From Patescibacteria group bacterium (GTDB lineage Bacteria > Patescibacteriota > Patescibacteriia > UBA10025 > JAHIVO01): DNA of 64,000 nucleotides. Where the stretch lies: assembly GCA_028718605.1 (NCBI GenBank), contig JAQULM010000001.1:94693-158692 (forward strand), given 5' to 3'. The notes beneath the pieces are model-generated. The model was given only the letters and a program-made list of their open reading frames with translations, did no database searches and was not told the origin of the DNA. A program made the position numbers and the translations under genes. Shown here one piece after another: positions 15,105 to 62,169 of the stretch. Position 1 is the stretch's first letter. Every line of letters begins with the position of its first letter.

Positions 15105-15211
15105 TGATGTACACTGCGGATTGATGTCATTATATATAGAAAAGCGCCTAAGCAAACCTGTAAGCCGAATTCTGTCGACCTCCGCTCTCCGAGCTACGGT
15201 CGACAAGTCCC

Positions 15212-15600
15212 ATGGGGAGCCTGTCCGCCGGAGTTCGGAGAACGAAGGCGGATGATTATCTATCTAGCCCCGACGTTGCCGTCGGAGTCATGCGACCAAC
15301 CCACCCCGCCAGATGACGGGGCCTACTTGGTCTTGCACCGGATAGGGTTTTTCACGCTCTGGCGTCGCCACCAGAACCTGTGAGCTCTTACCTCACCTCT
15401 TTTCACCCTTGCCTGATCCCCGAAACAAGTTCGGAGCCATCGGCGGTTTTGTCTCTGTGACACTGTCCCTGAAAGACAACACTCAAAAGACTATAGCCCT
15501 TTTGATCGCTGCTCCCGGTCGCATTTCGCGACTATCCTTTTCCTTGCCTTTTATGGGCGAGGGGTGTTCGGACTTTCCTCTTTTTTGCAAGCTTTTTTGC
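15212..15600 (-). ncRNA. rnpB: RNase P RNA, bacterial type A
   Basis: The minus strand contains GAGGAAAGUCCGAACAC (P4 5' strand), ACAGAGACAAAACCGCCGAUGGCUC, AUCAGGCAAGGGUGAAAAGAGGUGAGGUAAGAGCUCAC, GGUGCAAGACCAAGUAGG and GGGCUAGAUAGAUAAUCAUCCGCC...GAACUCCGGCGGACAGG. These align segment by segment with E. coli M1 RNA. The ends are approximate. Confidence 0.85.
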
Positions 15601-15717
15601 CTGTAAAAAAGCAATCACCCGGTTTACTTAGGCAGAATATATCTTAGCCAAAAAGCCGTTTTTTGTCAATAAACTGTGGTATACTTGATATTGTAATTAC
15701 CATTAATAAACGCAGCT

Positions 15718-26603: not shown

Positions 26604-27038
26604 ATGGGCACATTTCTCATTTTTATCTGGATATATGCCGCAATGGTCGCTACAGCGTTCTGGGAAGCGTACGTGGAAGGCAGGAACGCCTGGGATCGCG
26701 GTAAACTTGGGTGGAAAATCAAGGTTGGTAACTATACATTCACTGCCTACCATTTTTTCCTGTTTGCTGTCATGTGGCCATTGCTGCTCACGCTCCCCTT
26801 TATCATGTTTGGCTGGGACAAACGGCTTTTCGGGATTGTTGTAAGCGCATTCGCGTCTGGTTCGGTGCTCGAAGACTTTCTGTGGTATGTCGTCAACCCA
26901 GCCGTTAAGCTGTCAGAATTGAATACGGATTTCGCGAACTACTACCCACGCGTGCGGATTGGTAATCTTCGGATTCCTGTGTTTTACTTTATTGGAATCG
27001 CGGTTTCGATACTGTCCTGGCTCCTCCTCTGGAGGTAG
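26604..27038 (+). CDS. Hypothetical membrane protein (144 aa)
   Basis: Three or four hydrophobic helices. It starts immediately at the previous stop. Confidence 0.5.
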   Translation: MGTFLIFIWIYAAMVATAFWEAYVEGRNAWDRGKLGWKIKVGNYTFTAYHFFLFAVMWPLLLTLPFIMFGWDKRLFGIVVSAFASGSVLEDFLWYVVNPAVKLSELNTDFANYYPRVRIGNLRIPVFYFIGIAVSILSWLLLWR

Positions 27039-27070
27039 CGCCAATCTCTGCGGCAACCGACAACAAGTGG

Positions 27071-27099
27071 TTGACAGATATATTGGGTTTCTATAAAAT
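27071..27099 (+). promoter_or_regulatory. Sigma70-type promoter of the tRNA operon (TTGACA, 17-nt spacer, TAAAAT)
   Basis: TTGACAgatatattgggtttctaTAAAAT lies about 95 nt upstream of tRNA-Met. Confidence 0.55.
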
Positions 27100-27106
27100 A
27101 CAAAAA

Positions 27107-27178
27107 AACTCGGGCTCTCACACACGCGGCCGGCCACACCGCAAAAACGGGATTGATTCCCGTGAGAGCCCGAAAAAA
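27107..27178 (+). other. tRNA-like leader hairpin between the promoter and tRNA-Met
   Basis: An 11-bp stem (cgggctctcac/gtgagagcccg) encloses a GCGG...CCGC arm and a T-arm-like CGGGAUUGAUUCCCG. It is followed by A6 on the plus strand and by T7 on the minus strand. Confidence 0.3.
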
Positions 27179-27190
27179 TTGCTCTGAAGA

Positions 27191-27265
27191 GGCAGGGTGG
27201 AGCAGTCTGGTTAGCTCGTCGGGCCCATAACCCGAAGGTCGCGGGTTCAAATCCCTCCCCTGCCC
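27191..27265 (+). tRNA. tRNA-Met (CAU) with mixed initiator and elongator features
   Basis: Cloverleaf with a 7-bp acceptor GGCAGGG/CCCTGCC, anticodon stem TCGGG/CCCGA with three G-C pairs next to the loop, loop CCCATAA (C33), A11-U24, but G1-C72 paired. Confidence 0.85.
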
Positions 27266-27306
27266 TTACTTTTGCCCACGAATCGTGGGCGTATCTTAAA
27301 GGGAAC

Positions 27307-27381
27307 GGGCGATATAGCTCAGTCTGGTAGAGCGCCTGTCTGTGGATCAGGTTGTCGGCAGTTTAAATCTGCTTATCGCCC
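27307..27381 (+). tRNA. tRNA-His (GUG) with an encoded G-1
   Basis: gGGCGATA...TATCGCC C. The extra 5' G pairs with the discriminator C73. Anticodon loop CTGTGGA. Confidence 0.85.
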
Positions 27382-27396
27382 CATTCTTTCAAAAAT

Positions 27397-27499
27397 GCCG
27401 CTGTAGTTCAGCTGGTAGAGCAGTGGACTGTGTCCCTACGGGACATCTCACGCAGGGAGAAAAATCCAAAGGACAGGGGTTCGATTCCCTCCAGCGGCA
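27397..27499 (+). tRNA. tRNA-Phe(GAA)-like gene with a 30-nt insertion (about 27431..27460) in the anticodon loop
   Basis: It has a 7-bp acceptor GCCGCTG/CAGCGGC, D arm GTTC-AGCTGGTA-GAGC, T loop TTCGATT and discriminator A. Deleting the 30 nt gives the loop CUGAAAA, as in E. coli tRNA-Phe. The insertion lies between anticodon nt 34 and 35. Confidence 0.6.
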
Positions 27500-27509
27500 T
27501 TGCATTCAC

Positions 27510-27535
27510 GGCCTCGCCCCCAGAGGCCTTTTTGC
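27510..27535 (+). terminator. Rho-independent terminator of the tRNA operon
   Basis: ggcctc-gccccca-gaggcc followed by TTTTTG. Confidence 0.7.
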
Positions 27536-28474
27536 TTATTCCAATCGTTCACGAAAATTGACGTAGTACCGCCTACACACATCTTTCCAGGTGAATGAAT
27601 GTGTCTGCGTACCGTATTTCTCAACCGTGTATACGCTTACAACGGACGCCAAGCGGCCAATAACCGGCAGTGGATATCCCCGGAGGAATCCTGCGATCAA
27701 ACCGGCACGGTACGCATCACCGGCGCCGGTCGGATCAGACGTGTTCTTGGGACGTGCGGCCTGAATACGGCATGCGCGTGTTGCTGTTGTAATCACCGAG
27801 CCCTTCTTGCCGTACGTCGTTATAACCACTTCAGTCGCCTTCAGGAGCTGCTGCATATTCCAATGCGTCTTTTTTTGGATTAATGACAGCTCGTAATCAT
27901 TTGAAACAAGCGCACGGGATCCTTGTATTCCCTGAATAATATCGGCTGCGCGCAATGACGTCAGTTGCTGGCCGGGATCGTAGATATACGGAACCGAGGC
28001 TTTCTTTAATTCACGCGGTAGTACGCGCATATCCCTGTTATTACCCGGCGAGACAATAGCCATCGACATGCCGTGAAGTGCTGCCCGGCTGATTTTCCTG
28101 CACTGCCGAACCATTGCCCCCGGGAAAAAACCCGTGATCTGGTTATCGTCCTGGTCGGTAATCACATATGCCGACGTCGTTGGGATATCCAAACAGCCCG
28201 TGCTGCAGTCCAGTCTCATCCCGTTTTTCCGGCACCAACGTTTGTATTCGCCAAAATCGCTTCCGTATGCCGAAGCAATAAACGGCGTTACACCGAGAAG
28301 CGCGAGATTATATGCGATATTGCCGGCAGTCCCCCCAAAACCCTGGCGGAACGTGCGTACGGTGAAACTGACGCTCAAGGAATGAATTTTATCGGGGAGT
28401 ATATGGTCCCGAAAACGACCGGGGAAATCCATGATCCGGTCATATGCCAGCGATCCAGAAACCAAAACCCTCAT
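27536..28474 (-). CDS. PfkB-family carbohydrate/nucleoside kinase
   Basis: The ribokinase-like fold has the C-terminal motif DPTGAGDA and an N-terminal GG (GGTAGN). Confidence 0.8.
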   Translation of the reverse strand: MRVLVSGSLAYDRIMDFPGRFRDHILPDKIHSLSVSFTVRTFRQGFGGTAGNIAYNLALLGVTPFIASAYGSDFGEYKRWCRKNGMRLDCSTGCLDIPTTSAYVITDQDDNQITGFFPGAMVRQCRKISRAALHGMSMAIVSPGNNRDMRVLPRELKKASVPYIYDPGQQLTSLRAADIIQGIQGSRALVSNDYELSLIQKKTHWNMQQLLKATEVVITTYGKKGSVITTATRACRIQAARPKNTSDPTGAGDAYRAGLIAGFLRGYPLPVIGRLASVVSVYTVEKYGTQTHSFTWKDVCRRYYVNFRERLE

Positions 28475-39273: not shown

Positions 39274-39531
39274 TTACTTTTTGCCTCGTATTGAAACAAC
39301 TGAAATCGAATTGGACGCTGTTTTTTTGATAATCAACCGCGCCTTCGCAGCGACGGTATTTTTCCTTACTAAATTGAAATTGAATTTCAAATTTTGCGGG
39401 GTTATCGCTTGTCCATGCTGGACAAGAGTGCCCAGGCGCACCGTAACGCTCGTGATTTGCTTCAAATCGCGCAGTGCGGCCGTATGGACAGCTGTTTTCA
39501 GTATATCCTGCGCTGCAATTAAATCATGCAT
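39274..39531 (-). pseudogene. hypA: HypA-like fragment A: the Ni-binding N-terminal domain only, with no Zn-finger
   Basis: MHDLIAAQDILKTAVHTAALRDLKQITSVTVRLGTLVQHGQAITPQNLKFNFNLVRKNTVAAKARL... parallels E. coli HypA (MHEITLCQRALELIEQQAAKHGAKRVTGVWLKIGAFSCVETSSLAFCFDLVCRGSVAE). It then ends after 22 more residues with no CxxC...CxxC motifs. Confidence 0.55.
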
Positions 39532-39763
39532 ACCATCTCTCCTGCGGCTTGCCGCGTTCAATACGTATTCTGCGGTTCCAATGAAATACGCCTTCCCCTT
39601 ACAACTCTTCGTCTGATTTATCAGCTCTTTTCTCCGGTTCCGTATCGCCTGCTGCATGCTCGTCGGTATCGTTCGTATCTAATGGCTCACCACGCTCACT
39701 GTCTGGCTCATGGAATGGTGATAATCGTTCAGGCATACAATACAAAAGTTTATGTCCTCATCG

Positions 39764-40171
39764 CTAGTGCGTCGCACACGTCATGCACGGATCGTACGCA
39801 CGGATGAGGGTACCGAGTTTACGCGCATCGGGAGCATGTCGCCGGGCAGCACGTAAGTAGTGCTCCAAGTCAACCTCGAGATTGTTAATCATTTGCGCGG
39901 TCGGGGTAATAATATTTACATTTTTTAAAATACCAAGCCGATCTGTTTCGTAGTAATGCAGTAAAATTCCGCGCGGCGTTTCTATCGCAGCGACGGTATT
40001 TTTCCTTACTAAATTGAAATTGAATTTCAAATTTTGCGGGGTTATCGCTTGTCCATGCTGGACAAGAGTGCCCAGGCGCACCGTAACGCTCGTGATTTGC
40101 TTCAAATCGCGCAGTGCGGCTGTATTGACAGCCGTTTTCAGTATATCCTGCGCTGCAATTAAATCATGCAT
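39764..40171 (-). pseudogene. Chimeric ORF: HypA N-domain copy B fused in frame to a duplicated C-terminal 73 codons of the hydrogenase large subunit
   Basis: The first 62 aa are identical or near-identical to fragment A. The remainder, IETPRGILLHYYETDRLGIL...DPCMTCATH, matches the C-terminus of the ORF 40810..42066. Confidence 0.5.
39766..39993. repeat. Direct duplicate of the 3' end of the hydrogenase large-subunit gene (original at about 40813..41037)
   Basis: About 225 bp with only a few substitutions. It includes the DPCxxCxxH-encoding end. Confidence 0.8.
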
Positions 40172-51171: not shown

Positions 51172-54027
51172 TTACTTTTTCTTCCGTTCTTCCGCTTTCC
51201 CGATCGGCAGCGTGAAATGGAACGTCGAACCCTTGCCGATGCCCTGCGATTCCACCCAGATCGTGCCGCCGTGCGCCTCGGTCAATCGCCGGGCCACGTA
51301 CAAGCCGAGGCCGGAGCCGTCCGGATTCACCTGTGCGATGCCAAATCCGCGCACGAACTTCGCGAAGAGCTTCTTCGCCTCCTCCGGCTCGATACCGCGG
51401 CCCGTGTCTTTCACGCTGACGAGAATATCGCTTCCCTTCTTCACGGTTGAAACCACTACACTGCCGGCATCTGTATACTTGATCGCGTTATCTACCAAGT
51501 TCAGAATCATATCATCGAGCTTGTCGTGGTCAGCGGAAATGATCGGCAATGCGGTTTTCGGCTTATTATACTTCAGCACAAGCTTCTTGTCAGTGGCGTT
51601 CTTCTGGACGACCGACAGCACGTGCTCGACAATCTCCTCAACCTGCGTTGGCTGGAGATTCAGCACGAGCTTACCGGATTCGATCTTCGATACGTCCAGG
51701 AACAGGTTAATGAGCCGTATCATGCGCTGGGATTCATCGAGCAGCCCCTGCAGGATCTTGTGCTGTTCAGCCGGCACCTTACCGAAGTCTTCCTGCAGTA
51801 TCATGGACAGGTAGCCCATGATGCCGGTCATGGGCGTGCGGAGCTGGTGCGACGTTATTGAAACGAATTCCGATTTTGCCGAGTCAAGCTGCTGCAAATG
51901 CTTGTTCGCTTCGGCAAGTTCCGTATTCGACCGTGCGAGCTCTTGGTAGAGCTCGATATTCCGGTACACGATGCCGGTCTGGTTCGCAAGCGCCTTCATG
52001 ATCGAGAGGTCAGTATCCCTGAGCGTCCCAGGGTCGCGCTGCATCAGGAAATCAATGACGCCAATAATGCCTTCTTCGGAATAGATCGGGACTGCGATGA
52101 CTGTCTTGAGCGCGATAAGCGACTGGATTTTACCGCATACATCTTCTGGAACTGCCGGGGAGAGGAACTCGTGAAGTTCACTGCCGATCTGGATTTTCCC
52201 GAGTTTAATCGCTTTCACGGACCTGCTCGTGCTCGTCTGGAAATTTGAATAGAGTTCTGACAATGGTTTACCGATCAGGTTCATAATCTCCGGCGTCATG
52301 AGCCCGCGCGTGACCGCATCCGGGAATAACTTGTGCCTTTCCCTTCCGAGAAACATCACGATGCCGCCCAGGTACCCGAGCTCGTCCGCGATCGCGTCGG
52401 CGATCGACTGCGTCACTTTGCGAAAATCAAGCGTTTTGGTCATCAGCGTCGTCACTTTCTGTAACGCTGACAGGAACTTGTTGCGCTCCTGGAGCTGGAC
52501 GTTAGTGCTACGGAGGTCCTCGGTTGCGACCGCGACTTCCTTCTTCAGCCGCTCAGTAAACCGCTGTGCTTCCTCATATAAGCGTGATTTATCGAGTGCA
52601 GACGCGAGTTGCGGACCGATGAGCTTCAACAGATTGAGGTCTTCTGATCCATATGGATCACCTGACATCTTCGGTCCGAGCACCATAACCGCATTTAAAC
52701 TATTGCCAACGATAATGGGTGCAACCACGCTTGCATCGAGCTTGTCGAGCTCGGCTTTTGACGACTCGAGCTGTTTCCGTTCCCTCTCTTCCTGCGTATC
52801 TTCTATCTTACGTTCAAGCGCTTCCAAAACGATGACTTCATGGGACGTCTTCATGTATTGCACAAGCGGATTATCGTGCCCGAGACGTTCCCCAATGCCG
52901 GTCTGTCCTGTTATCTGCCCCAACGGCATATCGGGAAGTTTTTTCCCGGTCTTTGGGTCAATCCTACCCCTGCGCTTAAAAAATGCCCCGCCAATCGATG
53001 CCGATAAAAATATTGATACGTTCTTGACTTTCAACTTCGATTCCAATTCCCGCGACATTGAAAACAAAAGTATGTCCAAATCAATTTCACGATTAATGAT
53101 TTCACTTAATTCGGAAAGGAGGTGCTGGTAATCAACTTTGGCTTTAAAGAAGAAAGTATCAGTAATTTGAGCGATTGCTTGTCGTAATGGATTTAGTAAA
53201 AAGACAATAATTATTGCAACTATGACCTGAATAGCAATTGTTGTTATAAAATCAAGATTTAATGACCTTGGTAAAAGTAATGTCAGCACAACCACAACTA
53301 CCGAAACAAATATCGTAACAACTGAATAAGTAATAGTTCTTAGAATGATTAACCTAATATCAAGTAATTGGTGCTTTATAATTGCGTAAGCTGTAAATAC
53401 TATAAAAAATATTGTTGCAAAGGTGCCATAATTACTTAATTGTGAACTTCCAAGAGCAGGCAAGAATAAATTTGTAATACTTCCGAACACTACAGAAATT
53501 AATAAACCGAAGAATAAATACTTTATTCTTGTTCTTTTAACGCCTACCGCATGACGATAACTATTAACAAGAAAAAAGAAAGCTAACAATATATAAACAA
53601 TAAAATACAGCAGAAAGAGATAATAGAAAGGACCAAAAACGGGTACTATTGGATGAATCGTAATATCTTCAACGCCTGTTATAACTAAATTAGCAAGTGT
53701 TAAACATACGAGCAATATTGCCGGTAATATTATTAGATATGGAATTTGTCTTTTAAATTTATATTTTGAAGGGAAAATTAGAGTAAATAATAATAAAAAT
53801 GCCGGGATAAAAAACGACCCGATAAAGGTCATTTTTGTCCAGAAAAAGGCCGCGGAATAGGAATTAGTCAAATCAACAGTAAAATTTGAAATTAACCATA
53901 CACTTATTGCAATGGTAAAAGAAAGGAAGGTAATATTTACCGTTCCTCTTCGGTTTCTGGTAAACACCAGAATCCCCAAAAAAAGATTTAACCCAACAAT
54001 TAGTAATAATGCTATTAATTGATTCAT
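51172..54027 (-). CDS. Sensor histidine kinase with an N-terminal 7TM (HisKA_7TM-like) domain, GAF domain(s), HisKA and HATPase_c. The architecture is PrsK-like.
   Basis: An N-terminal multi-TM block; the H-box SHQLRTPMTGIMGYL; the G-boxes DTGRGI and GSGLGLYVARRL. No response regulator lies adjacent. Confidence 0.85.
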   Translation of the reverse strand: MNQLIALLLIVGLNLFLGILVFTRNRRGTVNITFLSFTIAISVWLISNFTVDLTNSYSAAFFWTKMTFIGSFFIPAFLLLFTLIFPSKYKFKRQIPYLIILPAILLVCLTLANLVITGVEDITIHPIVPVFGPFYYLFLLYFIVYILLAFFFLVNSYRHAVGVKRTRIKYLFFGLLISVVFGSITNLFLPALGSSQLSNYGTFATIFFIVFTAYAIIKHQLLDIRLIILRTITYSVVTIFVSVVVVVLTLLLPRSLNLDFITTIAIQVIVAIIIVFLLNPLRQAIAQITDTFFFKAKVDYQHLLSELSEIINREIDLDILLFSMSRELESKLKVKNVSIFLSASIGGAFFKRRGRIDPKTGKKLPDMPLGQITGQTGIGERLGHDNPLVQYMKTSHEVIVLEALERKIEDTQEERERKQLESSKAELDKLDASVVAPIIVGNSLNAVMVLGPKMSGDPYGSEDLNLLKLIGPQLASALDKSRLYEEAQRFTERLKKEVAVATEDLRSTNVQLQERNKFLSALQKVTTLMTKTLDFRKVTQSIADAIADELGYLGGIVMFLGRERHKLFPDAVTRGLMTPEIMNLIGKPLSELYSNFQTSTSRSVKAIKLGKIQIGSELHEFLSPAVPEDVCGKIQSLIALKTVIAVPIYSEEGIIGVIDFLMQRDPGTLRDTDLSIMKALANQTGIVYRNIELYQELARSNTELAEANKHLQQLDSAKSEFVSITSHQLRTPMTGIMGYLSMILQEDFGKVPAEQHKILQGLLDESQRMIRLINLFLDVSKIESGKLVLNLQPTQVEEIVEHVLSVVQKNATDKKLVLKYNKPKTALPIISADHDKLDDMILNLVDNAIKYTDAGSVVVSTVKKGSDILVSVKDTGRGIEPEEAKKLFAKFVRGFGIAQVNPDGSGLGLYVARRLTEAHGGTIWVESQGIGKGSTFHFTLPIGKAEERKKK

Positions 54028-54031
54028 TCAA

Positions 54032-54823
54032 TTAATATTGATTATAAATATATTTTTTAAGCAGCAAATCGATTGCGATAATATTCGGTACAACGACTGG
54101 CTTCCTTTTACCAAGAAGAATAAATAGTGCTTCAGCAACCATGATACTAGCAGCTAACGTTTGAGCAAGTGCAATATTAGGTATGGGAATTCTTTTTTGT
54201 ATAGTTTTACTTATTATCTCCTCATTAATATAGTCCGGTAAAATTGGTGCATATTTTTCAGGCGGAATTATTATTTGACCCACCTCTTCCCTTGACATCC
54301 CTTCGTGCATTCCTAAATATTCGTTAAACGAAATCCCATTAGGATCAAAAATTAATATACTTGCACCATAGCCGATTGCTTGTGGGGCTAACACAAATTT
54401 TTTCTGGTGCTTTGCTTCATTCGTTAATATATACGAAAAAAATAATTCATTATAATCAATGCAATCGAAAATAATATCAGATTGCTTTACAATCTCAGTT
54501 ACGTTCTTTTCATTTAATCCTTCCTTGTGCGGTGTAACTTTAATATTAGAATTAATCCCTTTAACAATTCGTGCCGTTATCTGAGCCTTATTCTCGCCTA
54601 TTGTTTTTTCAAAAGCACTAAATTGATTATTAATATTCACTGCCTCATAATTTTCTGGATCTGCTAATATTATAGACTCAACACCCGTCCTTGCGGCAAT
54701 TTGAGCAGTAATACTACCCATTCCACCACAACCGATCACCCCGATAGTTAAATTGCGTATGGTCTTTTGTTCTTTTTCAGAAAAGATCCCAATGTTTCTG
54801 GCAAACATTACATCATATTCCAT
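54032..54823 (-). CDS. ThiF/MoeB/HesA-family E1-like adenylyltransferase
   Basis: The Rossmann motif IGVIGCGGMGSITA and the ThiF-family core. No Cys-rich Zn motif. The gene is AT-rich. Confidence 0.8.
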   Translation of the reverse strand: MEYDVMFARNIGIFSEKEQKTIRNLTIGVIGCGGMGSITAQIAARTGVESIILADPENYEAVNINNQFSAFEKTIGENKAQITARIVKGINSNIKVTPHKEGLNEKNVTEIVKQSDIIFDCIDYNELFFSYILTNEAKHQKKFVLAPQAIGYGASILIFDPNGISFNEYLGMHEGMSREEVGQIIIPPEKYAPILPDYINEEIISKTIQKRIPIPNIALAQTLAASIMVAEALFILLGKRKPVVVPNIIAIDLLLKKYIYNQY

Positions 54824-54843
54824 ATTTTTGTATGAATTGGTTT

Positions 54844-55317
54844 TTATATAATACTACGAACAATTTGAATCCCGCTACTATAAATAAATATCCAGGTTAC
54901 AAAAAATAAAATATTTATTGAAAATATTAAGTAATACAATCTTTTTTTTTCGTAGCCCAGTAAACAAATCAGAACCGTAGTCACGGGCGTCCCAGCAGAT
55001 AATGTAGAAAAAACTATCCCAGTAAATTCACTATATCGAAGTACCACACGTTTTTTCTTACTTAAAGACTCTTCTTTGTTCTTAATCCAATTATGGAGTA
55101 TGTTAATTATCCTATTGCCTGATTCCTTGCTTTTATTATATAGCTTCGCAATTCCAAAACAAATTAGTATAAACGTTGCTGTAAATAATATAAAGGAGAT
55201 CAGTGGTCCTAAAAAAAATATACTAGAAATAAGTAGACTTTCCCCAAAGATTAACAAAATAACACTAATAAATATTGAAGAGACCGCGCTGCTATATTTC
55301 AATACTCCTCTTAGCAT
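54844..55317 (-). CDS. Hypothetical 4-TM membrane protein
   Basis: Four hydrophobic helices. AT-rich. Confidence 0.5.
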   Translation of the reverse strand: MLRGVLKYSSAVSSIFISVILLIFGESLLISSIFFLGPLISFILFTATFILICFGIAKLYNKSKESGNRIINILHNWIKNKEESLSKKKRVVLRYSEFTGIVFSTLSAGTPVTTVLICLLGYEKKRLYYLIFSINILFFVTWIFIYSSGIQIVRSII

Positions 55318-55397
55318 TTCATATTAGCAATTTATTATATTCTCATTGTAAACAAAAGATTGCATATCTATCGCCGATCTATTAATTTTTTCGTAAA

Positions 55398-56144
55398 TTA
55401 TTTTTTTGAAAAAAAGTTATAAAACAGTGGATTCTTTCTTTTTAAAAAATCCTCCATCTCGGCTACCTTTAATAGATTTGGGCAGGTGTGGCCTTGATAT
55501 GAAGAATATTCTCCGATTCTATTAAATGGAAAGCTCAATTTCAATAGCATATTCAATAATCTATCATCCATAACACTATAAATCTGCGTAATACCTTTCG
55601 ATTTGACATAATGATACATCGCTCGGATAAGTAATAGCATCAAATGAAAACGACGGTAATCGGGTGATAAAATCAAACGTGATATTTCTGCAATATGGTT
55701 TCGATCGATTTTATCTTGACTGTTAATTTTAAAGTGATTTTCTATAGGAAATCCCTTATCAGAAATTAAAATTAGCCGCACATAACCAACAATTTCTTCG
55801 ACACCCCCTTTAAAGTTTCGTTTTAGAAGGACAAAATGTTCAGAGTAGGGATCGTATTCATCACTTTCTAGCTTATGTGGATAATTTGAGGCTTGAAGGT
55901 AATTATATTGCTCACAGTATACCTCATACCGTAAGCGATAAATACGATACATATCATCAAGATTTTGCGAATATCTAATATAAAAATTTCTTGAGGTCCA
56001 ATGATTAAAAATAATAAATTTAAAAAAATTATCAAGCTTTTTAAAAAAACGTTTAATAACTTTATTACTTATTTTAAAATTTCCAAGAAAAATATCCCAG
56101 AGACTTATATCTAGCTCCTGATCATTATCATTTGAATCAGCCAT
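55398..56144 (-). CDS. GNAT-fold N-acyltransferase of the LuxI / N-acyl-amino-acid-synthase type (exosortase-system-associated acyltransferase-like)
   Basis: MYRIYRLRYEVYCEQYNYL (compare R-x-x-V-F in LuxI/NasY) and ESDEYDPYSEHFVLL. Confidence 0.6.
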   Translation of the reverse strand: MADSNDNDQELDISLWDIFLGNFKISNKVIKRFFKKLDNFFKFIIFNHWTSRNFYIRYSQNLDDMYRIYRLRYEVYCEQYNYLQASNYPHKLESDEYDPYSEHFVLLKRNFKGGVEEIVGYVRLILISDKGFPIENHFKINSQDKIDRNHIAEISRLILSPDYRRFHLMLLLIRAMYHYVKSKGITQIYSVMDDRLLNMLLKLSFPFNRIGEYSSYQGHTCPNLLKVAEMEDFLKRKNPLFYNFFSKK

Positions 56145-56330: not shown

Positions 56331-57761
56331 TTACCGCTGGGTCCCAGTAATCCTCCCGATCGCCTGCTCGTACAAAATCGCATTCCCAATCGCGCTGGTC
56401 ATTTGCGGCTGGAGGCGCGTTAAATAACTGACATTGTCGGCAGTGAACGCCTCGCCGCCTTTTTTCTCGCCGAACAAAAACACGCCGAGCAGGTTATCCC
56501 GCTCACCGATCGGCAACGCCATTGCCACCTTCATTGAATTGAGTCTGTCACCAACCTTGCGTAGCACTTCACGTTGGCCGTTGACCTGCTCCTCGATCAG
56601 ATACGGAATTTCTTCCGTAATCAATAACCGCGGGTTAGCGCGCAGATACTGGATGAGCACGTCATCCTGTGCGATTCGATTCGCGCCACCATGTCCTTTT
56701 TCAAAAACGCCGGTACTGGCATTCATCACAAAGAAGTCGATTGTGCCAACGCTGAAAAAATCGCCGAACCGCGACCGTATTGTATTGACCAGGCGGTCGA
56801 GCTGGAATCCTGAAGATAAGGCATTCCGCATTTCCCTGATCTCATCCTTCACGTCAGGCCGGTTTGAATAAAACACTTTGTCGACAGCTTTCAATATCAA
56901 TCGGCGAAGCGGCTCGATCGTTAGAACGATGGCAAACACAAGTAACAGCGTTGTTGTCTGGTCTGACCAGCCGAATTGCTTGACAAAATACCTTTGCGAA
57001 AAAATCAGTATATAAAAATATAAGAATAAAATGAGCGCAATTGAAATAAAGTTCGAGACGCCTTTTCGAATAACTAGATTGATGTCCATGAGGCGATACT
57101 TCAGTATTGAGTAAGCAAATGACACTGAAATGAAAATTGTACCAAGGGGGCCCCAAAAATTGGGATGGTTTTTATCGATAATCGGCATCACTAAATCGGC
57201 GATAAAACCGATTACTATTGCGGGCCCAAACCCAAAAACGATGTATTTTAACTTTGCGCGGTCAATCGAAATGCTCTTACGGTATTTTCTAATCAACAAC
57301 AGATAGGCAAATGAAACATACACTAAAGTATACATTGCAAAAACACTTTGGTAATCGCCATATACGGGAATTGAATATTCTTTTCCAACTATTATTTGGT
57401 CTTTGGCGAAATAGGGGCCAAGCGATGAAATTGTAATCACAAGAGATGGAACTAACAGCACGAGTAATTGCCATAATTTGAATTTGCTTTTCGTCGGAAA
57501 AAGTAGAACAAAAATTATAAAAGTAGGCGCAATTAAGGCGCCAAACATAAATGCCATTCTCCCACACAATAATGCGAAATTTTGACTGGTATTAACCAGG
57601 TAGCTGAGATAATTGGTAATTAACCATCCATTCAGCACCATTACCAACAGAAAAAACGTCCACTTGATTGCTCTTTGCTTGGCCTTGAACAATACGATAA
57701 AAGCAACTCCAAAATTAACAATTGCTACTATCCACTCAAAAACTTTCAATACTTCAATCAT
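56331..57761 (-). CDS. 7TM-GAF sensor paralog with no kinase domain
   Basis: An N-terminal 7TM block homologous to that of the HK at 51172..54027 (shared motif KYRLMDINLVIRKGV / KHQLLDIRLIILRTI), then a GAF-like domain. There is no H-box. Confidence 0.7.
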   Translation of the reverse strand: MIEVLKVFEWIVAIVNFGVAFIVLFKAKQRAIKWTFFLLVMVLNGWLITNYLSYLVNTSQNFALLCGRMAFMFGALIAPTFIIFVLLFPTKSKFKLWQLLVLLVPSLVITISSLGPYFAKDQIIVGKEYSIPVYGDYQSVFAMYTLVYVSFAYLLLIRKYRKSISIDRAKLKYIVFGFGPAIVIGFIADLVMPIIDKNHPNFWGPLGTIFISVSFAYSILKYRLMDINLVIRKGVSNFISIALILFLYFYILIFSQRYFVKQFGWSDQTTTLLLVFAIVLTIEPLRRLILKAVDKVFYSNRPDVKDEIREMRNALSSGFQLDRLVNTIRSRFGDFFSVGTIDFFVMNASTGVFEKGHGGANRIAQDDVLIQYLRANPRLLITEEIPYLIEEQVNGQREVLRKVGDRLNSMKVAMALPIGERDNLLGVFLFGEKKGGEAFTADNVSYLTRLQPQMTSAIGNAILYEQAIGRITGTQR

Positions 57762-59999: not shown

Positions 60000-60420
60000 G
60001 CTTGTCACTCTGACCTGCTGGACGTTTAGAGATCGCCGCGCTTCGCTCGCGATGACAGAAAAAGTATGTCTTTGCGACCGGAGCGAAGCAATCAAGTTCA
60101 GATTCCGGGTCAAGCCCGGAATGACCAGGGTTTATTATTTTGTCATCCTGAACTTGATTCGGCGTCGAGCCATCTCACCCTCTGTCACTCTGACCCGCCA
60201 TTGGGTGGGGAAGAGTCCCCTGGCCGGAGGCCAGGAGATGCTTTGCATGCAGTGGCGTCATGGGGTCTCTCGTTACACATGAAGGAGGCGGTGACCAACC
60301 CAGTTTGTCACCCTGAACGCAGTGAAGGGTCCCCTGGCCGATTGTCCAGAGATCGCCGCGCTTCGCTCGCGATGACAGAAAAAGTATGTCTTTGCGAGCG
60401 CAGCGAAGCAATCTCATGAG
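60000..60420. repeat. Hairpin-rich repeat block
   Basis: Two copies of a 66-bp palindromic unit (60028..60093 and 60348..60413). Several GTCA(C/T)CCTGAAC / TGTCACTCTGACC boxes. Perfect palindromes attccgggtcaagcccggaat and cctggccggaggccagg. Confidence 0.55.
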
Positions 60421-60689
60421 TACCAATTATACGCAAGGTCTTTCCACTGTCTATTATTCTTTTCAATCAGCTGTATCTTCTTTTGCCTTGAACCAGCCTT
60501 GATCTGTTTCTCCCGTGCAATTGCATCCATCGGATTGTCGAACACTTCGTAATAAACTAACTTGTTAACGTTATACTTACTTGTAAATCCTTTGACTATT
60601 TTCGTTTTGTGCTGGTACACACGCCCTTCTAAACTACCAGTAACGCCAGTATAAAGGACTCTATTGAACTTATTCGTCATAATATACAT
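60414..60689 (-). CDS. GIY-YIG nuclease-family small protein (UPF0213/YhbQ-like)
   Basis: MYIMTNKFNRVLYTGVTGSLEGRVYQH...KLVYYEVFDNPMDAIAREKQIK. Its stop abuts repeat copy 2. Confidence 0.8.
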   Translation of the reverse strand: MYIMTNKFNRVLYTGVTGSLEGRVYQHKTKIVKGFTSKYNVNKLVYYEVFDNPMDAIAREKQIKAGSRQKKIQLIEKNNRQWKDLAYNWYS

Positions 60690-60729
60690 GCAGTACTGCC
60701 GTTCCTGCCGCATAGTATCATTCCATTCG

Positions 60730-62169
60730 TCATGAGGATGCCTCGCCGTGCATCTGTAATCGTATCCGCTCCATCGCATCGCGGTACTGGAGGGCGTTCG
60801 CGAGCGGCGCAGTAACCTGGTCGCGCACGTGCTCAAGGTACTGCACATCCTGCACCGTATACGCATCGGATCCCGTGCGGTCGCCAACGGCGATAATCCC
60901 GATTACTTCGTCCTCGGTTCGCAGCGGCACGTACGCGGTAATATGCCGCTTTTTCATGTCATGCTCAGCCCGTTGTAGGTTGCCATTGCCCTTCCCCTCC
61001 TCGATCAGGTGGGGAATTTCGTCGCGGATGATCACGTCCGGCTTTACAAGCGCCAACCGGGCTAAATCGCTCGAGTCCTCGTGCAATTCTTCGCGCTGCA
61101 TGGCGTCCGGGCTATGCACAAAACACCCCTTGGTTCGTTCGAGGAGGAATATTTTTACGGCGTTTGCGTTCAGGTAGCCCTGAATGTTTTTTGCAACGGC
61201 GTCCGCAAGCTCCTGCGCGTCAGTCTTTTTTGCCACAGCGTCGCGCACCTCTTGAACGGCGAGGTCAATGCTCTGCCTGCCCTTGAACGTTGTGTCAACA
61301 ATTTTTTCAACGAGCCTCTTCAATGGCGGAAACCCTAACGCAACGAGTGCAATGAGGATTATTGCCGTCCACGTCGTATTAATATTCCACGATTGTTCAA
61401 TAGTTGACTTTAAAGCGAGAGCGAGATACGTATAAATTGCGAGAACAAGTATCAATGAAATTCCATAAATAACTCCACGGCGAACTATTACCCTAATATC
61501 CATAAATCGGTATTTGATCATGGCATATGAAGTTGCTGCAGCATATACAATACAAGCAATATAAGCAATCGAAAATAACGTTGAGTTTGAACGATTAATC
61601 GCAAATTCAAAACTTAAAACTAACCCAATGGTGATTGCTACTAGTAAGCCGAGGATAATATATTGTAACTGAATGTGTGCGACTCCTTGAGAATGTTTAT
61701 ATTTTGTAATTAAATTATAAAAGGTGATTGGAAAAAAATAAATTGCGATCGTTAGAAAATAAATTATAAAAAGTAATATATTGTAAACTAAACCAGAATT
61801 TTGATAATAAAATATTTTTCCAAAAATCGTTAAAAGAATTACTGATCCAATAGGAATGAACAGTAATAGCTCCGATTTTATCGTCAACCTTTTGTTCTCG
61901 GTAGGAAAATGAATTGCAAACAGCGATAAAAAATAGGCGATTAACGATGCAAATATGAAATCTAGTTTTGATAGAAATATATTTATTGAGGGAATATTCC
62001 TCAATGAACTTGTTTCAAACGTCCCGATTATTACCCAAAAAGCCCCCATTACAAGAAACCAAATATATCTATTAAATGCTTTGGTTTTCTTGCGCTTGAT
62101 AATAGCTTCAATAGCAATTAATGTTACAAAAACTGCACTGATCCCACAAAGAATTACTAAAATATCCAT
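60730..62169 (-). CDS. 7TM-GAF sensor paralog with no kinase domain
   Basis: An N-terminal 7TM block with the shared motif IKYRFMDIRVIVRRGV, and a C-terminal GAF-like domain. Confidence 0.7.
   Translation of the reverse strand: MDILVILCGISAVFVTLIAIEAIIKRKKTKAFNRYIWFLVMGAFWVIIGTFETSSLRNIPSINIFLSKLDFIFASLIAYFLSLFAIHFPTENKRLTIKSELLLFIPIGSVILLTIFGKIFYYQNSGLVYNILLFIIYFLTIAIYFFPITFYNLITKYKHSQGVAHIQLQYIILGLLVAITIGLVLSFEFAINRSNSTLFSIAYIACIVYAAATSYAMIKYRFMDIRVIVRRGVIYGISLILVLAIYTYLALALKSTIEQSWNINTTWTAIILIALVALGFPPLKRLVEKIVDTTFKGRQSIDLAVQEVRDAVAKKTDAQELADAVAKNIQGYLNANAVKIFLLERTKGCFVHSPDAMQREELHEDSSDLARLALVKPDVIIRDEIPHLIEEGKGNGNLQRAEHDMKKRHITAYVPLRTEDEVIGIIAVGDRTGSDAYTVQDVQYLEHVRDQVTAPLANALQYRDAMERIRLQMHGEASS

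What the first reader, a model, noticed from the sequence alone, without database searches (positions are those of the whole stretch)
27397..27499. A cloverleaf tRNA-Phe-like gene interrupted by a structured 30-nt insertion between anticodon positions 34 and 35
The gene has a canonical acceptor stem, D arm, T arm (TTCGATT) and discriminator A. The anticodon arm, however, reads GTGGA-CTG-[TGTCCCTACGGGACATCTCACGCAGGGAGA]-AAAA-TCCAA. Removing the bracketed 30 nt gives the loop CUGAAAA with anticodon GAA, identical to the E. coli tRNA-Phe loop. The alternative reading as a second His(GTG) gene would put U at position 37 and lacks G-1. The insert contains a perfect hairpin (UGUCCC-UAC-GGGACA) and a second hairpin (UCUC...GAGA). 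Position 34/35 is where group I introns interrupt tRNA-Leu(UAA) in some bacteria, but 30 nt is far too short for a group I intron. Short introns removed by a BHB endonuclease are an archaeal and eukaryotic feature. This is therefore either a novel short bacterial tRNA intron, an inactivated tRNA, or an assembly or indel artefact.
Basis: partly seen in the sequence, partly recalled or inferred. Interest (0 to 1): 0.75.

Follow-up and report, generated by a model that had tools for sequence, protein, structure and literature searches.

The report
tRNA-Phe gene split by double hairpin
A Patescibacteria (CPR) genome carries an otherwise intact phenylalanine tRNA gene whose anticodon is split by a 30-base insert that folds into two small hairpins; it fits no known kind of tRNA intron, and sequence alone cannot tell whether it is a disabled gene copy or a new kind of short bacterial intron.

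Summary
Window 27397-27499 (+) is a tRNA (Rfam 48.4 bits; 57.2 bits with a tRNA-Phe model). It has 30 extra bases (27431-27460) exactly between G34 and A35 of a CUG|AAAA (Phe GAA) loop. The same sequence appears in independent assemblies of two sequencing runs, so it is not an assembly artefact.

The insert consists of two tandem 15-nt hairpins, each a 6-pair stem with a 3-nt loop. Eleven of 12 pairs are Watson-Crick (54 of 2,000,000 shuffles do as well). It is not a group I intron, has no bulge-helix-bulge motif, matches no Rfam family and is not a repeat within the window.

The gene is third in a Met-His-X operon with a strong promoter and a terminator. Syntenic loci of relatives lack this operon. 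Scans of JGI metagenomes and IMG/VR found no interrupted tRNA-Phe like it. One Verrucomicrobiota contig has the same 30-nt double hairpin at the same site, but in truncated tRNA-Phe fragments.

My best reading (about 0.4) is a transcribed but non-decoding, disabled tRNA-Phe copy. The main rival (about 0.25) is a new short protein-spliced bacterial intron, with the unexplained megaphage tRNA introns as precedent. A census of tRNA genes in the whole genome, plus RNA reads, would decide.

The parts
27071..27099 (+). Sigma-70-type promoter of the tRNA operon (TTGACA, 17 nt, TAAAAT)
   Evidence: 11 of 12 consensus matches. This is a consensus match only; it has not been shown to fire.
27110..27173 (+). 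Strongly structured leader element. A 12-pair outer stem (CUCGGGCUCUCA/UGAGAGCCCGAG) encloses two small hairpins, one of them T-arm-like (GGGAUUGAUUCCC). On the minus strand it is followed by a T run and may serve there as a terminator.
   Evidence: MFE -36.6 kcal/mol, z = -5.8, 0 of 200 shuffles fold as well. Sequence. Its role is unknown.
27191..27265 (+). tRNA-Met(CAT) of initiator type (three G-C pairs in the anticodon stem, A11:U24). It is atypical in having C33, a paired G1-C72 and C73.
   Evidence: ARAGORN. Rfam 57.2 bits. The same C33 anticodon arm occurs in 26 IMG/VR contigs.
27307..27382 (+). tRNA-His(GTG) with an encoded G-1 (27307) and C73; one U31.U39 mismatch
   Evidence: ARAGORN. 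Rfam 61.7 bits. Sequence.
27397..27499 (+). Interrupted tRNA-Phe-type gene (X), 103 nt; it would be 73 nt without the insert
   Evidence: Rfam tRNA 48.4 bits. tRNA-Phe model R1 57.2 bits, the best hit in the window. Identical in L001 and L002.
27397..27430 (+). 5' part: acceptor strand, D arm, 5' strand of the anticodon stem, and loop bases C32 U33 G34
   Evidence: Alignment to the tRNA models.
27431..27445 (+). Insert unit A: perfect hairpin TGTCCC-TAC-GGGACA
   Evidence: 6 of 6 Watson-Crick pairs. Pair probabilities 0.81-0.97. No other copy in the window.
27446..27460 (+). Insert unit B: hairpin TCTCAC-GCA-GGGAGA (5 Watson-Crick pairs plus A.G). It shares 9 of 15 bases with unit A, with one pair swapped on both sides (G-C in A, C-G in B).
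   Evidence: The comparison of the two units is read directly from the sequence. No other copy in the window.
27461..27499 (+). 3' part: loop bases A35 A36 A37 A38, 3' strand of the anticodon stem, variable loop, T arm (TTCGATT), acceptor strand and discriminator A. CCA is not encoded.
   Evidence: Alignment to the tRNA models. Sequence.
27510..27535 (+). Intrinsic terminator of the operon (GGCCTC-GCCCCCA-GAGGCC followed by TTTTT)
   Evidence: Terminator scan.

Best explanation
X is a real, co-transcribed tRNA-Phe(GAA)-type gene. A 30-bp insert of two tandem 15-nt palindromic units sits exactly between wobble G34 and A35. The most likely state is a non-decoding, disabled copy, rather than an intron-containing gene that yields mature tRNA-Phe.

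Proposed course of events:
1. Shown: the operon promoter and terminator bracket Met, His and X.
2. Inferred: X is therefore transcribed with its neighbours.
3. Shown: the acceptor, T and D domains are intact.
4. Inferred: RNase P and RNase Z can trim the ends of X.
5. Shown by folding: the insert forms its own double hairpin.
6. Inferred: the anticodon loop is thereby replaced by a three-way junction. This separates G34 from A35 and A36, so the RNA can neither read UUY codons nor present the anticodon that PheRS recognises.
7. Inferred: decoding of Phe codons depends on another tRNA-Phe gene elsewhere in the genome.
8. Inferred: the insert arose at the DNA level by a palindrome-generating event in or next to the inverted repeat of the anticodon arm, with duplication of a 15-nt unit. 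The same event type has hit tRNA-Phe sequences in an unrelated phylum.
For: - No known removal route fits. At 30 nt the insert is too short for a group I intron, and no group I or ribozyme family matches at E<=10. No bulge-helix-bulge forms at any splice pair that restores a 7-nt loop.
- About 50 window ORFs show no RNA ligase or splicing endonuclease.
- The feature is singular. Syntenic loci of the closest relatives (60-65% protein identity) have no tRNAs at this position.
- A complete scan of JGI metagenome contigs for tRNA-Phe with a 10-40-nt insert found only assembly duplications, eukaryotic tRNA-Tyr introns and one 11-nt case. IMG/VR gave none.
- The only structural analogue is L097 (Verrucomicrobiota). 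It has the same 30-nt double-hairpin architecture (two 6-pair stems, 3-nt loops) at the same CTG|AAAA site. It sits in tandem truncated tRNA-Phe fragments that lack the T arm and the 3' acceptor strand and match no tRNA model. There the insert cannot be an intron of a working tRNA.
- X has two non-standard stem pairs (G27.A43, A49.C65).
- All three tRNAs of the operon are somewhat atypical, and the Met gene carries a C33 variant also seen on viral contigs. This fits an accessory, possibly redundant tRNA cluster.
Against: - The tRNA body is otherwise pristine. U8, A14, G18 G19, A21, G53 T54 T55 C56 A58 C61, G15:C48, and the 10-25-45 and 13-22-46 triples are all kept.
- Removing the insert restores exactly the universal Phe loop CUGAAAA.
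- The two hairpin units differ at 6 of 15 positions, yet both still fold, and one pair is swapped on both sides. If they arose by duplication, the body stayed intact for a long time afterwards, which argues for selection.
- Patescibacteria genomes are small and, to my knowledge, seldom carry duplicate tRNA genes, so a second tRNA-Phe is not assured.
- The gene sits in a tight operon with a strong promoter and a terminator.
- Short tRNA inserts that are neither group I nor bulge-helix-bulge are conserved in huge phages (PMC6784885). Some way of handling such inserts may therefore exist in bacterial cells.
Confidence: 0.4

Rival explanations
1. The insert is a new kind of short bacterial tRNA intron. 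The precursor folds as a normal tRNA body with the 30-nt double hairpin protruding from the anticodon loop. A protein endonuclease recognises the hairpins or the three-way junction and cuts at G34|U and A|A35. An RNA ligase (RtcB type or Rnl type) then joins the exons to give tRNA-Phe(GAA). The two stacked hairpins bring the two cut sites next to each other.
For: - Precise removal gives the canonical loop CUGAAAA, and the body is the best tRNA-Phe match in the window.
- All invariant tRNA bases are kept.
- The insert is an autonomous, highly ordered fold (54 of 2,000,000 shuffles).
- The two units differ in sequence but keep pairing.
- The operon has a strong promoter and a terminator.
- Patescibacteria are unusually rich in tRNA introns, though all known ones are group I (PMC13011429).
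- Huge-phage tRNAs carry conserved short inserts that are not group I and have no known mechanism (PMC6784885).
Against: - No bacterial enzyme system for this is known.
- There is no bulge-helix-bulge, and no ligase or endonuclease gene in the window.
- It is a single occurrence with no conservation data.
- The only analogue lies in non-functional tRNA fragments.
Confidence: 0.25
2. X is an unspliced but functional tRNA-like RNA. It keeps the acceptor/T/D body, so it is processed and stable. It uses the three-way junction in place of the anticodon for a role outside decoding. Examples would be a decoy or sponge for an anticodon-directed nuclease or a modification enzyme, or a regulatory RNA.
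For: - The body is conserved, the insert is ordered, and the gene is co-expressed with two tRNAs.
- The 5' junction reads CUGUGU, which resembles the His-type loop CUGUG of the neighbouring gene.
- The Met gene in the same operon has an anticodon-loop variant (C33) that is common on viral contigs. Such variants have been proposed to evade tRNA-cleaving toxins (PMC10264068, abstract only).
Against: - There is no conservation, no partner protein and no match to Y-RNA-like or other tRNA-like families above noise.
- The idea rests on analogy only.
Confidence: 0.15
3. The insert is an assembly, amplification or sequencing artefact, or a rare variant within the population.
For: - Palindromic insertions can arise as chimeras during amplification.
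- All the assemblies come from one study.
Against: Contigs assembled independently from two runs (SRR22315506, SRR22315508) carry the identical locus. They match the window without a single mismatch over 17.4 kb and 1.8 kb.
Confidence: 0.03

Closest known systems
Group I introns in bacterial tRNA anticodon loops (for example tRNA-Leu at 34/35; Patescibacteria tRNA-Phe at 33/34 and Asn/Asp at 35/36; PMC13011429)
   Same: Same phylum and the same region of the tRNA. Position 34/35 is a known group I insertion site. Standard tRNA finders miss such genes.
   Different: [quoted passage not shown] They begin after a U and end in G. This insert is 30 nt, follows G34, ends in A, has no catalytic core and gives no Rfam match.
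Archaeal and eukaryal protein-spliced tRNA introns (bulge-helix-bulge; EndA/TSEN plus RtcB)
   Same: Short (10-60 nt) and located in the anticodon loop. The exons would need cutting and ligation by proteins.
   Different: No bulge-helix-bulge forms at any compatible splice pair. For the Phe reading the position is 34/35, not 37/38. The host is a bacterium, where to my knowledge no splicing endonuclease has been described.
'Enigmatic' short introns of Lak megaphage tRNAs (Devoto et al. 2019, PMC6784885) and the interrupted tRNAs seen here on large IMG/VR contigs
   Same: They are inserts in anticodon loops of tRNAs that must work in bacterial cells. They are not group I, are not recognisably bulge-helix-bulge, and have no known mechanism. 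As tRNAs they score similarly in Rfam (43-56 bits against 48 for X).
   Different: The phage inserts are 40-60 nt. Many are themselves tRNA-like, with a T-arm hairpin inside a longer stem, and four of them score as tRNA on their own. They recur in identical form across related phage contigs. X's insert is 30 nt, made of two plain hairpins, chromosomal and so far unique.
The 30-nt double hairpin in tandem tRNA-Phe fragments of a Verrucomicrobiota MAG (L097, CAYYWX010000018.1)
   Same: Same site (CTG|AAAA of a Phe anticodon arm), same length and same architecture: two adjacent hairpins with 6-pair stems and 3-nt loops, 12 of 12 pairs. Within each insert the two units resemble each other and show changes on both sides of a pair.
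   Different: There is no sequence similarity to X's insert. In L097 the insert sits in truncated tRNA pieces (positions 1-47 only) repeated every 150 bp, which cannot fold into a tRNA.
Disrupted tRNA genes (pseudogenes)
   Same: An essential element, the 7-nt anticodon loop, is destroyed, and two stem pairs are non-standard.
   Different: The rest of the gene and its expression signals are intact. The disrupting sequence is highly ordered rather than arbitrary.
Expansion or intervening sequences in structural RNAs of Patescibacteria
   Same: The RNase P RNA in the same window is 486 nt against a 367-position model. Its long hairpin insertions include one capped by UCCC-CAU-GGGA, which resembles unit A (UCCC-UAC-GGGA).
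   Different: Such expansions sit at peripheral, tolerant sites. An anticodon loop is not a tolerant site.

Membership tests
tRNA (Rfam RF00005) | Cloverleaf with conserved D-loop and T-loop bases, scoring above the gathering threshold | tested here: met
   48.4 bits against a gathering score of 29, with all 71 model positions matched.
tRNA (Rfam RF00005) | A 7-nt anticodon loop in the gene product | tested here: not met
   The encoded loop is 37 nt. It would be 7 nt only after removal of 27431-27460.
tRNA-Phe(GAA) | G34 A35 A36 in a CUGAAAA loop, A73, and a Phe-type body | tested here: met
   - The flanks are CUG and AAAA, the discriminator is A, and U20, U59 and U60 are present.
- X is the best hit of a tRNA-Phe model, 57.2 bits against 52.3 for His and 46.2 for Met.
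- With the loop masked, 44 of the 60 most similar tRNAs are Phe. That set was enriched for Phe by the way it was collected.
- The anticodon is met only if the insert is removed.
Group I intron | Ribozyme core (P3-P9), usually more than 200 nt | tested here: not met
   The insert is 30 nt. No Intron_gpI match in 27000-27700 even at E<=10.
Group I intron | 5' splice site after U; the last intron base is G | tested here: not met
   For the GAA reading the exon ends in G34 and the insert ends in A. A U33|...G| reading would leave the anticodon AAA.
Bulge-helix-bulge intron (archaeal or eukaryal type) | Two 3-nt bulges that hold the splice sites, separated by a 4-bp helix | tested here: not met
   For all eight 30-nt excisions tested (5' cut after positions 31-38; those after 33-37 leave a 7-nt loop closed by the GUGGA/UCCAA stem), the central helix has at most 2 of 4 pairs. 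The geometry used is taken from my own knowledge of the motif.
Bulge-helix-bulge intron (archaeal or eukaryal type) | A splicing endonuclease (EndA family) and a ligase encoded in the genome | not testable with these tools
   None is found among about 50 ORFs of the window and its flanks. Roughly 90% of the genome was out of reach.
Huge-phage 'enigmatic' tRNA introns | A short insert in the anticodon loop that is not group I | tested here: met
   for X. for the phage examples.
Huge-phage 'enigmatic' tRNA introns | The insert has a tRNA-like or T-arm-like fold and recurs across related genomes | tested here: not met
   X's insert is two plain hairpins. No second genome carries it.
tRNA pseudogene | An intact functional paralogue elsewhere in the genome | not testable with these tools
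   Only the 64-kb window plus about 6.7 kb of flanks could be read, and no further tRNA lies there.
tRNA pseudogene | Decay of conserved positions beyond the disrupting lesion | tested here: inconclusive
   Two non-standard stem pairs (G27.A43, A49.C65), but every invariant or tertiary base is kept. The neighbouring tRNAs also have one mismatch each.
Dispersed palindromic repeat (REP- or MITE-like) | Several copies in the genome | tested here: not met
   Neither 15-mer has another copy within 3 mismatches beyond chance. No shared k-mer of 11 or more exists in the 64 kb. The rest of the genome was not tested.
Known small ribozymes and riboswitches | A match to a curated covariance model | tested here: not met
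   Only noise-level hits (E>1) in 27000-27700.

The most novel reading that the evidence does not exclude
The 30-nt double hairpin is the first example of a short, protein-spliced intron in a chromosomal bacterial tRNA gene. It would be a third class of tRNA intron, neither group I nor bulge-helix-bulge. It would be recognised through its two stacked 6-bp hairpins or the three-way junction, cut at 34/35, and resealed by a bacterial RNA ligase. It might be mechanistically related to the unexplained introns of huge-phage tRNAs.
Probability: 0.22. Interest if true: 0.9.

Novelty: new variant of a known kind. Interest (0 to 1): 0.5.

Why it matters
As far as I know and from the papers read here, bacterial tRNA introns are almost all self-splicing group I ribozymes, with a handful of group II cases (PMC13011429). 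Protein-dependent splicing of short tRNA introns is treated as a hallmark of archaea and eukaryotes.

A short intron that is truly spliced in a Patescibacteria tRNA would overturn that division. It would point to an unknown bacterial cut-and-join pathway. It would also offer a route into the unexplained tRNA introns of megaphages.

There is a practical consequence too. Default tRNA finders miss this gene. If it is the only tRNA-Phe, the genome would be wrongly scored as lacking one.

If it is a disabled copy, as I think slightly more likely, the interest is narrower. It would then illustrate a recurrent mutation that generates palindromes and has struck the tRNA-Phe anticodon loop in two phyla.

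Tried and rejected
- **Assembly artefact:** rejected. Two independent Logan assemblies are identical.
- **Group I intron or remnant:** rejected on size, on the splice-site bases and on the lack of any model match.
- **Bulge-helix-bulge:** rejected. The canonical 37/38 reading has both outer helices but only 2 of 4 central pairs. It would also give a tRNA-His with U37 and no G-1.
- **Known ribozyme, riboswitch or Y-RNA-like element:** only noise hits.
- **Other cloverleaf readings:** ARAGORN with introns allowed proposes tRNA-Val(GAC) with a 12-nt intron and a 23-nt variable arm. A GUGGA/CCUAC stem with loop CUGUGUC would need a 36-nt variable region. Both were rejected as far less tRNA-like than the Phe reading.
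- **Dispersed repeat or local duplication as the source of the 30-mer:** no other copy in the window and no hit of its central 20-mer in IMG/VR.
- **Orthologous loci by synteny:** the POR-PfkB...Dus neighbourhood is conserved in three relatives, but it holds no tRNAs there. No comparison of the insert was therefore possible.
- **Genome-collection scan:** my pattern was flawed. It is therefore incomplete, although it did yield L097.
- **Metagenome and viral scans with a tighter pattern:** only eukaryotic tRNA-Tyr introns and assembly duplications.
- **Walking outwards from the window to find more tRNAs of this genome:** 5.2 kb to the left and 1.5 kb to the right, with no tRNAs.
- **Phage or prophage origin of the locus:** the flanking genes are housekeeping genes syntenic with relatives, and no phage record is similar.
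- **Context of L097:** the neighbours are ordinary genes (methyltransferase, Na/H exchanger, Kelch/FG-GAP repeat protein, AsmA-like) and gave no clue.

Full report
**What is there.** The stretch 27397-27499 (+) reads as a complete cloverleaf. It has a 7-bp acceptor stem, a D arm with G18 G19, a T arm with TTCGATT and discriminator A. The anticodon arm is GTGGA-CTG-[30 nt]-AAAA-TCCAA. Rfam's tRNA model matches exactly these coordinates at 48.4 bits and places the extra bases inside the anticodon loop. Default ARAGORN reports only the two upstream genes, tRNA-Met(CAT) at 27191-27265 and tRNA-His(GTG) at 27308-27382.

Three details need adjusting. The stems contain G27.A43, A49.C65 and G50.U64. 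The second hairpin is best read as TCTCAC-GCA-GGGAGA. The insert is therefore two tandem 15-nt units.

**Which tRNA it is.** Removing 27431-27460 leaves the loop CUGAAAA with anticodon GAA. I built a covariance model from 14 diverse intron-less tRNA-Phe genes. Gene X is its best hit in the window at 57.2 bits, despite the penalty for the insert. The neighbouring His and Met genes score 52.3 and 46.2. The model aligns CUG to CUG and sets 34 nt against its AAAA.

That set was enriched for Phe by the searches that gathered it. Intron-less tRNA-Phe genes with the identical arm GCAGTGGACTGAAAATCCA occur on 25 IMG/VR contigs.

The His reading fails: base -1 is T, the discriminator is A, and position 37 would be U. 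A bacterial Tyr reading fails for lack of a long variable arm. ARAGORN with introns allowed offers a Val(GAC) model with a 12-nt intron and a 23-nt variable arm, which is much less tRNA-like.

**It is not an artefact.** Contigs assembled independently by Logan from two runs (SRR22315506 and SRR22315508) carry the same locus. They are identical to the window over 17,451 and 1,760 bases, with no mismatch.

**The insert.** It consists of two adjacent hairpins, each with a 6-position stem and a 3-nt loop: TGTCCC-TAC-GGGACA and TCTCAC-GCA-GGGAGA. No linker separates them. Three loop bases (CUG) lie on the 5' side and four (AAAA) on the 3' side.

Eleven of the 12 stem positions are Watson-Crick pairs. 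Only 54 of 2,000,000 shuffles of the 30-mer reach 11 pairs in this register. In the partition function of the whole precursor, hairpin A has pair probabilities of about 0.97 and hairpin B about 0.6.

The two units share 9 of 15 bases. At stem position 2 they differ on both sides (G-C in unit A, C-G in unit B). They look like diverged copies of one unit, although the statistical support is modest (about p = 0.04 by my own count of matching pairs).

Neither unit, nor any k-mer of 11 or more from the insert, occurs elsewhere in the 64 kb. The central 20-mer has no exact match in IMG/VR.

**What it is not.**
- At 30 nt it cannot hold a group I core. A permissive Rfam search of 27000-27700 (E up to 10) returns only the three tRNAs and noise, with no intron, ribozyme or riboswitch family.
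- I tested the bulge-helix-bulge geometry (3-nt bulges around a 4-bp helix) at eight 30-nt excision positions spanning the loop. The central helix never has more than 2 of 4 pairs. The best case is the canonical 37/38 position, which would in any case yield a His-like anticodon with U37.
- No RNA ligase, kinase/phosphatase or splicing-endonuclease domain is found among about 50 ORFs of the window and its flanks. These are housekeeping genes for glycolysis, pyruvate:ferredoxin oxidoreductase, a hydrogenase, cell-envelope glycosyltransferases and histidine kinases.

**Context.** The organism is a Patescibacteria (CPR) bacterium. The adjacent PfkB kinase is 100% identical to proteins of two NCBI MAGs named 'Patescibacteria group bacterium', one on a 651-kb contig. 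The next-closest homologues are only 65% identical.

The three tRNA genes form a compact unit:
- a near-consensus promoter (TTGACA, 17 nt, TAAAAT) at 27071-27099;
- a strongly structured 64-nt leader element (z = -5.8);
- tRNA-Met, tRNA-His and X;
- an intrinsic terminator at 27510-27535.

In three relatives the neighbourhood (POR alpha/beta, PfkB..., a 144-aa membrane protein, Dus) is conserved, but it contains no tRNA gene. The operon is thus specific to this lineage at this site, and no orthologue of X could be compared.

All three tRNAs are a little unusual. The Met gene is initiator-like (three G-C pairs, A11:U24) but has C33, a paired G1-C72 and C73. His has U31.U39. The C33 initiator arm occurs on 26 IMG/VR contigs, mostly in otherwise canonical initiators.

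**Relatives of the phenomenon.** My first scan of the genome collection used a pattern that also matched normal tRNA genes followed by ...CCA(C)AAAATCC. It still produced one striking hit. In a Verrucomicrobiota MAG (L097), three tandem 150-bp units each contain positions 1-47 of a tRNA-Phe. Each has a 30-nt insert at the same CTG|AAAA site. The insert is again two adjacent hairpins with 6-pair stems and 3-nt loops: CCAGCC-GCA-GGCTGG and TCCGCC-TCA-GGCGGA, 12 of 12 pairs. The two units resemble each other, 10 of 15, with two positions changed on both sides.

There is no sequence similarity to X's insert. The L097 units lack a T arm and a 3' acceptor strand and match no tRNA model. The shared site, length and architecture are very unlikely to be coincidence. 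Because L097 cannot give a working tRNA, the match points to a recurrent DNA-level event rather than to a shared intron.

A complete scan of JGI metagenome contigs used a pattern anchored on the T loop. It found 12 loci: five assembly duplications, six eukaryotic tRNA-Tyr genes with their usual introns, and one bacterial-looking tRNA-Phe with an 11-nt insert. None has a double hairpin. IMG/VR gave only eukaryotic-type tRNA-Tyr introns.

**Precedents in the literature and in the fetched loci.** Group I introns are frequent in Patescibacteria tRNAs, including tRNA-Phe at 33/34. Position 34/35 is the classic tRNA-Leu site (PMC13011429, read). That paper reports no short introns.

Devoto et al. 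2019 (PMC6784885) described 'enigmatic' introns in Lak megaphage tRNAs, one of which may itself encode a tRNA. I saw the same kind of thing on the large IMG/VR contigs that my tRNA-Phe search brought in. At least nine tRNAs of 117-138 nt have 45-60-nt inserts in the anticodon loop, and they are identical across related contigs. In four cases the insert itself scores as a tRNA. Short tRNA inserts that are not group I therefore persist in genomes that express them in bacterial cells, by an unknown mechanism. X's insert is shorter and lacks the T-arm-like hairpin, so it does not belong to that group.

**Weighing the explanations.** Five points favour a disabled, non-decoding copy:
- no known or plausible removal route;
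- no conservation;
- uniqueness in large scans;
- the L097 analogue in dead fragments;
- two non-standard stem pairs within an operon of somewhat atypical tRNAs.

Five points favour a functional interrupted gene:
- the otherwise perfect tRNA body;
- exact restoration of CUGAAAA on removal;
- an insert that folds on its own and whose two units have diverged while keeping their pairing;
- good expression signals;
- a small genome of a type in which, to my knowledge, duplicate tRNAs are uncommon.

I put the disabled or non-decoding copy at about 0.4, a new short spliced intron at about 0.25, an unspliced functional tRNA-like RNA at about 0.15 and an artefact at about 0.03. The remainder is unassigned. 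In-silico folding cannot help further. The algorithm fails to recover the anticodon stem even for the insert-free sequence.

**What would decide.** Two things would settle it: a tRNA census of the complete MAG, and RNA reads across the junction. Neither could be done here. The tools gave access only to the window plus about 6.7 kb of flanks, which hold no further tRNA.

Noticed in passing
window 27191-27265 (+): The tRNA-Met is initiator-like (three G-C pairs in the anticodon stem, A11:U24; bases 10-45 nearly identical to the E. coli initiator as I recall it). It has C33 instead of the near-universal U33, a paired G1-C72 and C73. The same C33 anticodon arm has 26 exact matches on IMG/VR viral contigs, mostly in otherwise canonical initiators (C1xA72, ACCA).
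   Followed up: partly
window 27110-27173 (+): The leader of the tRNA operon forms a very stable three-way structure (z = -5.8). A 12-pair outer stem encloses two hairpins, one of them T-arm-like (GGGAUUGAUUCCC). On the minus strand it is followed by T7 and could terminate the PfkB transcript, which would then run antisense through the three tRNA genes.
   Followed up: partly
window 15145-15630 (-): The RNase P RNA (class A, 200 bits) is 486 nt against a 367-position model, with several large insertions. One, near the 3' end, is a hairpin of about 60 nt (z = -4.2) capped by UCCC-CAU-GGGA. That cap and unit A of the tRNA insert are the only two matches to TCCCNNNGGGA in the 64 kb.
   Followed up: partly
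L097 3762-4158 (tRNA sense is the minus strand); Verrucomicrobiota MAG contig CAYYWX010000018.1: A tandem 150-bp array of truncated tRNA-Phe pieces (positions 1-47). Each has a 30-nt double hairpin at 34/35, and two units also have a 44-nt insert in the D loop. The array ends in a tRNA-Phe 5' half broken in the anticodon loop. Nature unknown; the neighbouring genes are uninformative.
   Followed up: partly
L172 1522-1643; L180 7537-7658, 1722-1854 and 9536-9673; L172 275-412; L186 4034-4166; L179 1837-1953; L185 2814-2939; L181 2732-2849 (large IMG/VR contigs): Phage tRNAs of 117-138 nt with 45-60-nt inserts in the anticodon loop, identical across related contigs. In four cases the insert itself scores as a tRNA in Rfam: L177 5656-5709, L188 6413-6466, L167 3023-3081 and L181 4325-4379. 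This 'tRNA inside a tRNA' suggests excision by RNase P and RNase Z followed by ligation.
   Followed up: partly
window 39274-40171 (-): Two adjacent small HypA-like ORFs lie next to split-looking [NiFe] hydrogenase large-subunit pieces. An identical 15-mer, TGTCCATGCTGGACA, occurs at 39410 and 40050, which indicates an internal duplication.
   Followed up: no
window about 54000-56000: A low-GC island (0.32 against about 0.49 elsewhere) that carries a ThiF-family gene and a GNAT/FeeM-like N-acyl amino acid synthase. It is flanked by three paralogous 7TM histidine-kinase-type genes (51172-54027, 56331-57761, 60730-62169).
   Followed up: no
window about 60414-60713 (-), seen as L193 4766-5065: A small 99-aa GIY-YIG nuclease-domain protein just downstream of a 7TM-GAF gene. 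Its function is unknown, and no link to the tRNA locus 33 kb away is evident.
   Followed up: no
L136 2356-2410 (metagenome contig ERZ1026892.8784): A bacterial-looking tRNA-Phe with an 11-nt insert (AGGGCTGCTAT) at the same CTG|AAAA position and a damaged 5' acceptor strand. It is probably a pseudogene.
   Followed up: no
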